A stretch of DNA of 64,000 nucleotides, taken from NCBI RefSeq assembly GCF_003790525.1, contig NZ_CP033635.1; one strand, given 5' to 3'. A program made the position numbers. The stretch comes from Escherichia coli (GTDB lineage Bacteria > Pseudomonadota > Gammaproteobacteria > Enterobacterales > Enterobacteriaceae). Shown piece by piece: positions 59,201 through 62,200 of the stretch. How positions within the stretch are numbered: position 1 is the first letter of the stretch; the number at the start of each line of letters is the position of its first letter.

Positions 59201-62200
59201 GCAATGACTGACATTGACATGGCGCGTTCTGGCCTCACTCTTGCATCAGCTGCGATTTCAGCAATAACAGGATAAATGGAAAAAGCGACATAACCAGTTC
59301 CACATATTGCCGTAAAAAGATAAGCAACTGCTGGCCCAAGAAACGTGATTGCACCAGGCCTCTTTTGCAGTATTTTTTCAGCTATTGTCACGAAAAGATC
59401 AAGACCTCCCGCTGCCTGCAGGATAGCAATACATGTGATAACAGCAAGAATAATGGAAATGACAGTGATAGGCGGGGAATCAGGCGGGACTCCAAAACCA
59501 AAAGTCAGAATTGCGAGCCCTAATCCCCCGCCGCCCCTAAGCCGATTCCACCAAAGCGCCCACCTATCCCAATGCATGTAAGTACTATTGCAAACTGAAT
59601 TACGAATAACATCATAACCAATCCCTTTCGTCAACAAATAGCTTAATATCATGCACATAATGTGCGAATAAACATGATAAATAAATTTGTTATGATAGTA
59701 TATAAAGAAATATAATTTAATATATTATTTATAGTTATGAATAGATAGGAGCTGTAATCAGAGTATATTATGGATAAAAGAAAAGAACTATTTGAATCTA
59801 TTAAAGATTATTTGCTTGATGAAGCTAATCGTAAAGCCGATGGCCGTATAGAAACAGAAACGGAACTTGCAACTCGTTTTAACACCTCCCGATATAAAGT
59901 CCGTCAGGCACTTAGTACTCTCGTCCAAATGGGAATGCTTGAACGAGCCCCTCGCAGAGGAAGTCTGTTAAAAAACGTTGGCCAGAGTAGTATTAACGAC
60001 CAATTGTTGATGCAGTTTGATCTATCTGGGTTTGATATCTCGGAATTTACAGAGGCCAGAATTTTAGTTGAGTGCGCGATCATTCCACTGGCAACACGCC
60101 GAATTTTCCCAGCGATGCTCTCCAAACTTGAAAATGAATTGAGATTGATTGAGGAAAATGCAGACAATCCACAAATAGCAGATCAACATGATCGGGATTT
60201 TCACCTGCTCTTGCTTCAGGCCAGTGGTAATCGTGTTCTGCAGGTTTTCTCTGATGTGTTAATCGCTTATTTTGAGAAAACAAGAGAGTCGTTACCGGAT
60301 AATGATTGTCAATACTTCCTTGATACTGCTTCAAAACAGAGAGAGATATTGTCGTATATCAAAAAAGGCGATGCCCAAATGGCTTCAGAGTTAATGCGAG
60401 TTCATTTACTGGAAAAGAAAATATAGCATTAAATCTTTCAAAAACTAAAACTCAACCGGAAAACTTATCTGGTGTGAGTGCTATGTGATATCACTGTCAA
60501 GTTATTAGCTGTGTTTATCCTAATAAGGTATCTTTGATATATAAGCGAGCTTTATTGGTAAAGAGAGCGCTATCATAGCAGACTATGTTAAGTTAGAGCA
60601 GGGATGCGTAAGTCTGAGTGCCACGTCTTCTGTACGTATCGACGCCTTATACGATCTGGAAAATATTATCAGGCATAAACATAAAGGAGAACTTGCCTGA
60701 GTAGTTGCCTTTTGAGAAATTTATCTTCACTGGATGGGAGTTACCTGCCAACATGTGTTCCCGTCCAAGGACAGAACCAACAGTTGGGTGTTGATTACCT
60801 GGTGACGCGGAACCAACAGAAGTTGTAATTATGCAGGTCTGAGGAGATCAGTATCAGAGATATCCGAATGAACTGTGATAATGGTTTGACAAAAACGGAT
60901 AACAATACAACAGAACACGTTCTTAGTAATCTCAGCCATGGAAATAAAAATTAGATGTATCTCCAATCAGTGAGTTGCGTGGAAATTACAAGGTTCTGCT
61001 GTACGATCTGAGTGGGTTAACTTGATATTTTGTACTCGTCACAGAAAATATACAGAGATATACACTCTGGTGTAATCACTGTTGTAGGTTGATCAGGTGT
61101 CACTCTTTTTACTATAATGTTTAGTATAAGCAATGTTTTTTCAAAAAACGTTCTTAGAAGTAGAGTTACTAACTCCAAAGTTAATGACACAGAACCAATG
61201 ATAAAAAAAACTAATCCATTTCCCTCTTAAAATTTTTAACAAAAATAATTTCACATTTTATTTTAACGGGGAAATATTAAATAGTATATCTAACCCAGGG
61301 AAAGTTAATTAAATTCCATAAGTAACAATAGGGTTGATTTTTAAATCACTATATAGAATATTTATATAGATTTAGGTATTACGTTGGCAAGCTAGGTTGG
61401 AAAAATGAACAATGTATTAATTGTTGATGACGATATATTAGTAGCTGATGTGATTCGTCGCATTGTAGAACAAACCCCGGCATTTAAATGCTGTGGCATA
61501 GCGTTATCACTTGGTCAGGCGAAAGAAATTATATCTGTAAATAAAAAACTGGCTGACTTGATTTTGCTTGATCTTTATATCAATAAAGATAACGGACTTG
61601 ATTTACTCCCTTTTCTTCATAGCATTCATTGCAAAAGTGATGTTATTGTAATTTCTGCTGCTGATGACTCTGCGACAATTAAAGATTCATTACATTATGG
61701 TGTTTCTGATTATCTGATAAAGCCATTTCATATCTCACGTTTGGTTGATTCGCTTACACGATGGAAACATAAAAAGACTCTTCTTGAGAGTCAGAAGATA
61801 TTCAATCAATCAGAACTGGATTTATTAACTCACAAAATAATTCCGAACACAGAAAAAATAAGACATTTACCCAAAGGACTGTCAACAGATACATTGCGAA
61901 TTATTTGTAGGTGGATTGATGAGCATCAACATAAAAAATTCACACTCAATGAACTGGCCAGTGGTATTAAGATATCCAGAATCTCATGCAGAAAATATAT
62001 CATCTGGCTGGTAAGTTGCCATATATTGGCATTTGATTTTTCCTGTGGTGTCACTGGTCGCCCTGCTTATCGTTACTGGATAAGACATCAATATTACCCA
62101 TATATTAAAAAATATAGTGAAAAACCGTAAGCCTTTTAATCATTTATCTACCATAATTATGACATCTACTTAATCACAATAAACTCATCGTGCGATAATT

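What the first reader, a model, noticed from the sequence alone, without database searches (positions are those of the whole stretch)
59525..59529. G-run frameshift at the N-terminus of the second Dcu-like carrier
The correct N-terminal frame stops right after a G5 run and the rest of the protein continues in the adjacent frame; a G6 run would give an intact paralogue. This is either a slippage-inactivated gene or a homopolymer sequencing error.
Basis: seen in the sequence. Interest (0 to 1): 0.4.

Follow-up and report, generated by a model that had tools for sequence, protein, structure and literature searches.

The report
One-base deletion kills a spare transporter gene
An accessory E. coli gene for a DcuA/DcuB-type C4-dicarboxylate carrier has lost one G from a run of six, which stops translation after 31 codons; it is an ordinary, rare pseudogene allele that is most likely real rather than a sequencing error.

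Summary
On the minus strand a DcuA/DcuB-family gene starts at ATG 59615, reads 29 codons into a G5 run (59529-59525) and stops at TAG 59522-59520. The other 409 codons run on in the -1 frame to 58300. Adding one G gives a 438-aa protein identical to the intact E. coli allele WP_000979091.1.

The window is E. coli. It differs from strain KFu014 by 7 SNPs and one indel, this G run, over 64 kb. Of 175 complete-genome records with the locus, 174 have G6. Only CLSC36, from a different lineage, has G5.

The exact G5 product also occurs in 19 public contigs, including a MEGAHIT gut-metagenome assembly and SRA-run assemblies. It sits on three island haplotypes, each with G6 relatives. Within the rare 61460A haplotype it appears in several samples, which suggests inheritance. 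So G5 is a genuine, rare, recurrent slippage allele. For this assembly I put genuine deletion at about 0.8 and homopolymer error at about 0.15.

The result is most likely a null allele. The replacement N-terminus is not hydrophobic and has no ribosome-binding site. RefSeq nevertheless calls the CLSC36 allele an intact 444-aa protein. There is no support for phase variation or programmed recoding. Interest is low.

The parts
59525..59529 (-). G5 homopolymer run (C5 on the plus strand). One G shorter than the G6 of the intact allele; this is the frameshift site.
   Evidence: Read directly. It is the only indel against KFu014 over 64 kb. 174 of 175 complete-genome records have the 1-base-longer form.
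59520..59615 (-). 5' fragment of dcu2 in the native frame: ATG 59615 and 31 codons, then the premature stop TAG 59522-59520. It encodes the hydrophobic first helix and the start of the Gly-rich motif.
   Evidence: Maximum 17-aa Kyte-Doolittle hydropathy is 2.54. Pfam profile positions 1-23 are covered only when this part is in frame.
59622..59628 (-). Shine-Dalgarno-like AAAGGGA, 6 nt upstream of the native ATG.
   Evidence: Read. The alternative starts in the downstream frame have nothing comparable.
58300..59526 (-). Remaining 409 codons of dcu2 (including the stop) in the -1 frame. They are not translated from the native start.
   Evidence: Matches Pfam DcuA_DcuB positions 24-366.
59471..59484 (.). 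One arm of a 14-nt imperfect inverted repeat. Its partner arm contains the G run.
   Evidence: 86% complementary, 34 nt between the arms. In one search the two arms pair in the predicted fold, but the z-score is -1.46, not significant.
59519..59532 (.). Second arm of the inverted repeat, holding the G5 run. With G5 the stem has no gap; with G6 one base would bulge out.
   Evidence: The bulge statement follows from comparing the two arm sequences.
56868..58184 (+). Intact paralogue dcu1 (438 aa, DcuA/DcuB family), convergent with dcu2.
   Evidence: 51% identical to the repaired dcu2. Annotated as WP_000339325.1.
59770..60426 (+). GntR/FCD-family regulator, divergent from dcu2; a likely local regulator.
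55427..56803 (+). Argininosuccinate-lyase-family gene upstream of dcu1, part of the same accessory cluster.
   Evidence: TIGR00838, 614.9 bits.

Best explanation
This is a genuine one-base deletion (G6 to G5), made by strand slippage in a short G run. It inactivates dcu2, one of several DcuA/DcuB-type C4-dicarboxylate carrier paralogues in an accessory E. coli island.

Shown:
- Ribosomes starting at the native ATG stop after 31 codons.
- The intact G6 form is the norm in E. coli.
- The G5 form is rare, recurs on different island haplotypes, and appears to be inherited in at least one sub-lineage.

Inferred:
- The downstream 409 codons are not usefully translated. The alternative in-frame starts have no ribosome-binding site, and they would replace the first transmembrane helix with a non-hydrophobic peptide. 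The allele is therefore functionally null.
- The loss is tolerated because an intact paralogue lies next door and more Dcu carriers lie just beyond the window.
- The run sits in one arm of an imperfect inverted repeat, which may favour this deletion.

A +1 G slip would restore the gene, but the tract is too short for this to work as a real switch.
For: Sequence and frames. Family membership and loss of profile positions 1-23.

Population state:
- Only CLSC36 has G5 among 175 records.
- All 7 JGI metagenome contigs with the site have G6.
- The intact protein is listed in 11,066 blocks of the collection; the G5 product is in 19 contigs.

Real rather than error:
- This is the only indel in 64 kb against KFu014, alongside 7 SNPs.
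- The exact G5 product occurs in a MEGAHIT human-gut metagenome contig, three SRA-run (Logan) assemblies and isolate genomes.
- G5 sits on haplotype A (the window, L009, L012), on A' (L007, L011, L032) and on B (CLSC36, L008). G6 relatives exist for each.
- The A' marker 61460A is present in only 2 of 222 complete-genome records. Z1323CEC0011, one of the two, was checked and has G6.
- Several samples carry 61460A together with G5: L007, L011 and L032, the last as one contig seen in 4 samples.

Gene decay:
- Other independent disruptive alleles of the same gene exist: a 1-bp deletion at 59561 (L019/P0010) and a frameshifted 212-aa form found in 32 contigs (P0008).
- The same lineage carries other decayed genes in this island: a TonB-dependent receptor frameshift and an internal stop in an IbrB-like gene.

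Null phenotype: the native N-terminus is hydrophobic (17-aa maximum 2.54) and the alternative-frame N-terminus is not (mean -0.58). No Shine-Dalgarno sequence precedes the alternative starts.
Against: - No reads are available for the window's own assembly, and the source genome could not be identified in the collections.
- G/C homopolymers are the commonest residual error in long-read assemblies. One G5 carrier, GCA_052953255.1, has 23 gaps in 7.4 kb, so its G5 may well be an error.
- A frequency of about 0.2-0.6% is not far from a plausible per-site error rate for a weak assembly.
- Independent origins are inferred from haplotypes. A short recombination tract under about 4.4 kb (between the nearest markers at 56825 and 61296) could instead have moved one G5 allele between backgrounds.
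- Loss of function is inferred, not measured.
Confidence: 0.8

Rival explanations
1. Homopolymer assembly or sequencing error: the strain really has G6 and an intact gene, and the consensus dropped one G.
For: - G6 is the state in 174 of 175 complete-genome records.
- A single-base deletion in a G/C run is the typical residual long-read error (general knowledge).
- An error-laden assembly also shows G5 (L010).
Against: - It is the only indel in 64 kb against the nearest genome, and none of the other 38 G/C runs of 5 or more differ.
- The same allele on the same haplotype appears in independent SRA-run assemblies (L009, L012) and in short-read metagenome assemblies.
- It recurs in several samples within the rare 61460A haplotype.
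- Only 1 of 175 complete genomes, many of them from long reads, shows G5, so the site is not a systematic error hotspot.
Confidence: 0.15
2. The gene is still functional. It would be translated from an upstream alternative start in the downstream frame, as RefSeq annotates in CLSC36: a 444-aa protein from TTG 59634, WP_225379506.1.
For: - The downstream frame is open up to 59658.
- PGAP calls the CLSC36 allele an intact protein, not a pseudogene.
Against: - The alternative starts (59658, 59652, 59637, 59634, 59577) have no Shine-Dalgarno sequence, while the native ATG has AAAGGGA 6 nt upstream.
- The substituted 35 residues are not hydrophobic and replace the conserved first helix and Gly-rich motif.
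- That open stretch is out-of-frame native coding sequence, not an evolved N-terminus.
Confidence: 0.03
3. An evolved switch: either phase variation through the G tract, or programmed -1 ribosomal frameshifting at G GGG G that reads through to the full protein.
For: - G5 recurs on at least two or three island haplotypes.
- GGG could re-pair one base back on the run (read from the sequence).
- The run lies in an inverted repeat.
Against: - The tract is only 5-6 nt, and the OFF form is at most about 0.6% of genomes.
- The frameshift is not conserved: orthologous copies are in frame.
- There is no X XXY YYZ heptamer.
- The predicted hairpin is not better than shuffled sequence (z = -1.46).
Confidence: 0.02

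Closest known systems
E. coli DcuA/DcuB anaerobic C4-dicarboxylate carriers (Pfam PF03605, TIGR00770)
   Same: The repaired protein matches the family models end to end and well above their cut-offs: 397 bits against 27 for Pfam, and 442.9 against 369 for NCBIfam NF006927. It has the same length class and the same N-terminal helix plus Gly-rich motif as the neighbouring paralogue.
   Different: It is an accessory-island paralogue, present in about 3% of complete E. coli genomes (174 of 5426), and not the core dcuA or dcuB. Its substrate is unknown. In this window it is interrupted after 31 codons.
Ordinary homopolymer-slippage pseudogenes of E. coli strains, e.g. the ilvG frameshift of K-12 (from general knowledge)
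   Same: A single-base indel in a short run, specific to a strain or lineage, with an intact allele in most other strains, in a gene whose loss is tolerated.
   Different: The same deletion recurs on several island haplotypes. It is also hidden in RefSeq as an apparently intact protein with a wrong-frame N-terminus.
Homopolymeric-tract contingency (phase-variable) loci of Neisseria, Haemophilus and Campylobacter
   Same: The reading frame is set by the length of a G run near the 5' end of a surface or transport gene, and the change is reversible in principle.
   Different: The tract here is 5-6 nt rather than about 8 or more. The OFF form is rare. There is no evidence of mixed lengths within a strain.
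AspR-DcuA D-aspartate module of the Shigella SRL island (Henriquez et al. 2020, cited in PMC7545054)
   Same: The wider island in CLSC36 carries an Asp/Glu racemase next to a further Dcu carrier, an AspA-like lyase and AnsB. This fits an accessory module for aspartate or C4-dicarboxylate catabolism.
   Different: Those genes lie beyond the window's end. No identity to the SRL genes was tested, and dcu2 itself is paired with an ArgH-like lyase and a GntR regulator.

Membership tests
DcuA/DcuB carrier family (PF03605 / TIGR00770) | Full-length match to the family models above the curated cut-offs | tested here: met
   Repaired (G6) protein: Pfam 397 bits (cut-off 27), profile positions 1-366 of 368. 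NF006927 442.9 bits (cut-off 369) and TIGR00770 410.1 bits (cut-off 331).
DcuA/DcuB carrier family (PF03605 / TIGR00770) | One continuous ORF from the native start covering the whole domain, as encoded in this window | tested here: not met
   The native frame stops after 31 codons at 59522-59520. The long ORF covers only profile positions 24-366.
DcuA/DcuB carrier family (PF03605 / TIGR00770) | C4-dicarboxylate transport activity | not testable with these tools
   No assay was possible, and no solved structure is related by sequence.
Homopolymer-tract phase-variable (contingency) locus | A tract long enough for high-frequency slippage (about 8 nt or more, from general knowledge) | tested here: not met
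   The run is 5 nt here and 6 nt in the intact allele.
Homopolymer-tract phase-variable (contingency) locus | ON and OFF lengths both common among isolates | tested here: not met
   G5 is in 1 of 175 complete-genome records and 0 of 7 JGI contigs. The G5 product is in 19 contigs, against 11,066 blocks for the intact protein.
Homopolymer-tract phase-variable (contingency) locus | Repeated independent changes of tract length | tested here: inconclusive
   G5 is found on haplotypes A, A' and B, each with G6 relatives. A short recombination tract could also explain this pattern.
Homopolymer-tract phase-variable (contingency) locus | Mixed tract lengths within one culture | not testable with these tools
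   Needs reads.
Programmed ribosomal frameshift (dnaX / prfB type) | The frameshift is conserved in orthologues | tested here: not met
   174 of 175 records carry the in-frame G6 allele.
Programmed ribosomal frameshift (dnaX / prfB type) | A slippery heptamer X XXY YYZ and a stimulatory structure | tested here: not met
   The site reads GC-G GGG GAU UAG, which is not a heptamer. The fold z-score is -1.46, and 20 of 200 shuffles fold as well.
Homopolymer assembly error | Other homopolymer indels nearby against a near-identical genome | tested here: not met
   One indel and 7 SNPs in 64 kb against KFu014.
Homopolymer assembly error | The allele is absent from independent data sets | tested here: not met
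   The exact product occurs in 19 contigs from metagenomes, SRA-run assemblies and isolates. It recurs in several samples within the 61460A haplotype.
Homopolymer assembly error | Reads of the source strain disagree with the consensus | not testable with these tools
   No reads were available, and the source genome was not identified.

The most novel reading that the evidence does not exclude
The G run sits in one arm of an imperfect inverted repeat, and G6 to G5 removes the only bulge in the stem. That would make the site a structure-driven deletion hotspot. The same reversible OFF allele of a redundant carrier would then arise repeatedly in unrelated E. coli lineages, working as a low-frequency, contingency-like switch in a species not known for homopolymer switching.
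Probability: 0.07. Interest if true: 0.35.

Novelty: new member of a known kind. Interest (0 to 1): 0.15.

Why it matters
The main value is practical.

- The locus is a strain-level pseudogene, so it should not be counted as a working transporter in metabolic or pan-genome analyses.
- RefSeq hides this allele. PGAP gives the same allele in CLSC36 a wrong-frame N-terminus and calls it an intact protein (WP_225379506.1). Similar masked frameshifts near 5' ends are probably common.
- The recurrence of one deletion on several island haplotypes is a small, clean example of a mutational hotspot in a 6-nt run.

Nothing here bears on a major open question.

Tried and rejected
- **Source genome.** I tried to identify it. 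No complete E. coli genome matches exactly. The best, KFu014, differs by 7 SNPs plus the indel, and CLSC36, the only G5 genome in the set, is a different lineage that carries the yersiniabactin island.
- **Species representatives.** A scan for the tract with a variable gap found nothing, so the state in other species was not obtained.
- **JGI metagenomes.** The scan gave only 7 contigs, all G6.
- **Solved structures.** The PDB sequence search found no relative, so the importance of the first helix rests on hydropathy and profile coverage.
- **Literature.** Searches for CLSC36 and for the island found nothing specific. Only the SRL AspR-DcuA module turned up as context.
- **Frameshift-stimulating RNA structure.** The fold is not better than shuffled sequence.
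- **Templated (quasi-palindrome) correction.** Copying the other arm exactly would give G4 followed by A, not G5. The repeat can therefore at most stabilise a slipped intermediate.

Full report
**What is in the sequence**

The finding lies on the minus strand. CCCCC at 59525-59529 on the plus strand is a G5 run in the coding strand. A DcuA/DcuB-type gene, called dcu2 here, starts at ATG 59615, six bases after an AAAGGGA Shine-Dalgarno-like element. It reads MMLFVIQFAIVLTCIGIGGRFGGIGLGAAGD and stops at TAG 59522-59520. The rest of the gene, 409 codons including the stop, continues in the -1 frame from 59526 to 58300.

Adding one G gives a 438-aa protein. That protein aligns with the convergent neighbour dcu1 (56868-58184) straight through the junction: 51% identity, residues 3-438 against 4-438. 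It matches Pfam DcuA_DcuB over positions 1-366 of 368, and it passes the NCBIfam Dcu cut-offs. The frameshifted long ORF matches only profile positions 24-366.

**Where the window comes from and what related genomes show**

The window is E. coli. Over all 64 kb it is collinear with strain KFu014 and differs by 7 substitutions and one indel, and the indel is this run. SMS-3-5 is identical over 52200-64000 apart from the run.

The locus is accessory. It occurs in 174 of 5426 complete genomes (175 records). With a 96-nt G5 query, only CLSC36 matches perfectly and the other 174 records fall below 99% identity; every sampled record spans 97 bases, one more than the query. With a G6 query, 171 records are at 99% identity or better and all sampled top hits are 100%. 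In SMS-3-5, KFu014 and Z1323CEC0011 the gene is annotated as the intact 438-aa WP_000979091.1.

CLSC36 is not the source of the window. Its core flank at 34-48 kb differs by about 2.5% and it carries the yersiniabactin island, although the island segment at 48-64 kb is nearly identical.

**Real allele or error**

The exact product of the G5 long ORF (452 aa) is present in 19 public contigs. These include a MEGAHIT contig from human-gut run ERR1018281, another metagenome scaffold, three SRA-run (Logan) assemblies and isolate assemblies. The intact protein is listed in 11,066 blocks of the same collection. All 7 JGI metagenome contigs containing the site have G6. G5 is therefore rare, roughly 0.2-0.6%.

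Flanking SNPs place G5 on three island haplotypes:

| Haplotype | Markers | G5 carriers | G6 relatives |
|---|---|---|---|
| A | identical to the window | window, L009, L012 | SMS-3-5, KFu014 |
| A' | 61460A | L007, L011, L032 | L029 |
| B | 56825T, 61296T, 61538A, 62422G | CLSC36, L008, L010 | L015 |

The 61460A marker is rare: 2 of 222 complete-genome records carry it, and the one examined, Z1323CEC0011, has G6. Yet two unrelated metagenome assemblies and GCA_907177025.1 (one contig seen in 4 samples, plus 3 similar places) combine 61460A with G5. That pattern fits inheritance within a sub-lineage, not independent consensus errors.

G5 is thus a genuine circulating allele that has arisen, or been transferred, at least two or three times. 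A recombination tract under about 4.4 kb cannot be excluded, because the nearest markers are at 56825 and 61296.

For the window itself:
- The run is the only indel in 64 kb.
- None of the other 38 G/C runs of 5 or more differ from KFu014.
- Seven SNPs of real divergence make one real indel unsurprising.

One G5 carrier, GCA_052953255.1, is full of deletions, so its G5 may be an error. This shows the error route exists. Without reads I put a real deletion at about 0.8 and an assembly error at about 0.15.

**Consequence for the gene**

From the native start only a 31-residue peptide is made. RefSeq annotates the same allele in CLSC36 as an intact 444-aa protein starting at TTG 59634 in the downstream frame (WP_225379506.1), not as a pseudogene. 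That reading is unlikely to be biological, for three reasons:
- None of the alternative starts has a Shine-Dalgarno sequence.
- The substituted N-terminus is not hydrophobic (mean Kyte-Doolittle -0.58, best 17-aa window 0.06), whereas the native segment scores 2.54.
- It replaces the first helix and the conserved Gly-rich motif that the Pfam profile and the paralogue share.

I infer a null allele; this was not measured.

The loss should be tolerable. dcu1 next door is intact, and in related genomes two more Dcu carriers lie just beyond the window, together with AnsB, an AspA-like lyase and an Asp/Glu racemase. That arrangement recalls the AspR-DcuA D-aspartate module of the SRL island.

Other disruptive alleles of dcu2 exist in the population. 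One is a 1-bp deletion at 59561. Another is a frameshifted 212-aa form found in 32 contigs; comparing its sequence with the window suggests loss of one GTTT unit. The window's lineage also carries a frameshifted TonB-dependent receptor and an IbrB-like gene with an internal stop in the same island. Sporadic decay of this island is evidently ordinary.

**Mechanism of the mutation**

Strand slippage in a 6-nt G run is the simplest cause. The run lies in one arm (59519-59532) of a 14-nt imperfect inverted repeat whose partner is at 59471-59484. With G5 the two arms pair without a gap, and with G6 one base would bulge. This may stabilise the slipped intermediate and help explain the recurrence. 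The fold is no better than shuffled sequence (z = -1.46), so this step is speculative.

**Alternatives rejected**

- Phase variation. The tract is short and the OFF form is rare.
- Programmed frameshifting. The shift is not conserved, there is no slippery heptamer, and there is no significant structure.

**Verdict**

Two points are mildly interesting: the same deletion recurs on several haplotypes, and RefSeq masks it as an intact protein. Interest is low, at 0.15.

Noticed in passing
window 49614-51761 (+); A7 run at 50496-50502: A TonB-dependent receptor gene is split into two ORFs (49588..50556 and 50583..51761) by an A7 run. CLSC36 has A8 and an intact 715-aa gene. KFu014 shares the A7 form and is annotated 'frameshifted', so this is a second, inherited homopolymer pseudogene in the same island.
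   Followed up: partly
window about 52132-52776 (-): An IbrB-like gene next to a PAPS-reductase-like (IbrA-like) gene is annotated with an internal stop in SMS-3-5 and KFu014, which are identical to the window here. It is intact in CLSC36.
   Followed up: no
CLSC36 record NZ_CP041300.1 2038706-2040040 (equivalent to window 58300-59634): RefSeq/PGAP annotates the G5 allele as an intact 444-aa protein (WP_225379506.1) from a TTG in the wrong frame, not as a pseudogene. The frameshift is therefore invisible in protein databases.
   Followed up: yes
window 61405-62130 (+): A DcuR-type response regulator (NF007750, 312.9 bits) has no adjacent DcuS-like sensor kinase. About 1 kb of apparently non-coding sequence lies on either side of it.
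   Followed up: no
L018 (CLSC36) 188-6911, beyond the window's 3' end: The island continues with an Asp/Glu racemase, two more DcuA/DcuB carriers, an AspA-like lyase and AnsB. That makes four Dcu paralogues in one accessory island, and the racemase-carrier pair resembles the SRL-island AspR-DcuA D-aspartate module.
   Followed up: partly
L019 (GCA_034325365.1), equivalent to window 56929-56940 and 59561: Another lineage has a 12-bp in-frame deletion in dcu1, within the same Gly-rich N-terminal motif. It also has a different 1-bp deletion in dcu2 (G3 to G2 at 59559-59561), again annotated as a 444-aa intact protein.
   Followed up: partly
window about 54160-54960: Short degenerate remnants are annotated in relatives as fragments of a thioesterase, ClbP-like peptidase and galactonate dehydratase. 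They lie between the IbrA-like gene and the ArgH-like gene and look like debris from earlier island content.
   Followed up: no
window 26705-26815, 40194-40305, 42022-42144, 44415-44551: The window holds several tRNA-Asn copies. It lacks the yersiniabactin high-pathogenicity island that CLSC36 and SMS-3-5-like genomes carry at one of these tRNA-Asn sites.
   Followed up: partly
plasmid records such as NZ_AP022088.1 138719-138815: Four large plasmids carry a slightly diverged copy of dcu2 (about 97% identity over the 96-nt query, G6 state). In one case the same strain also has the chromosomal copy.
   Followed up: no
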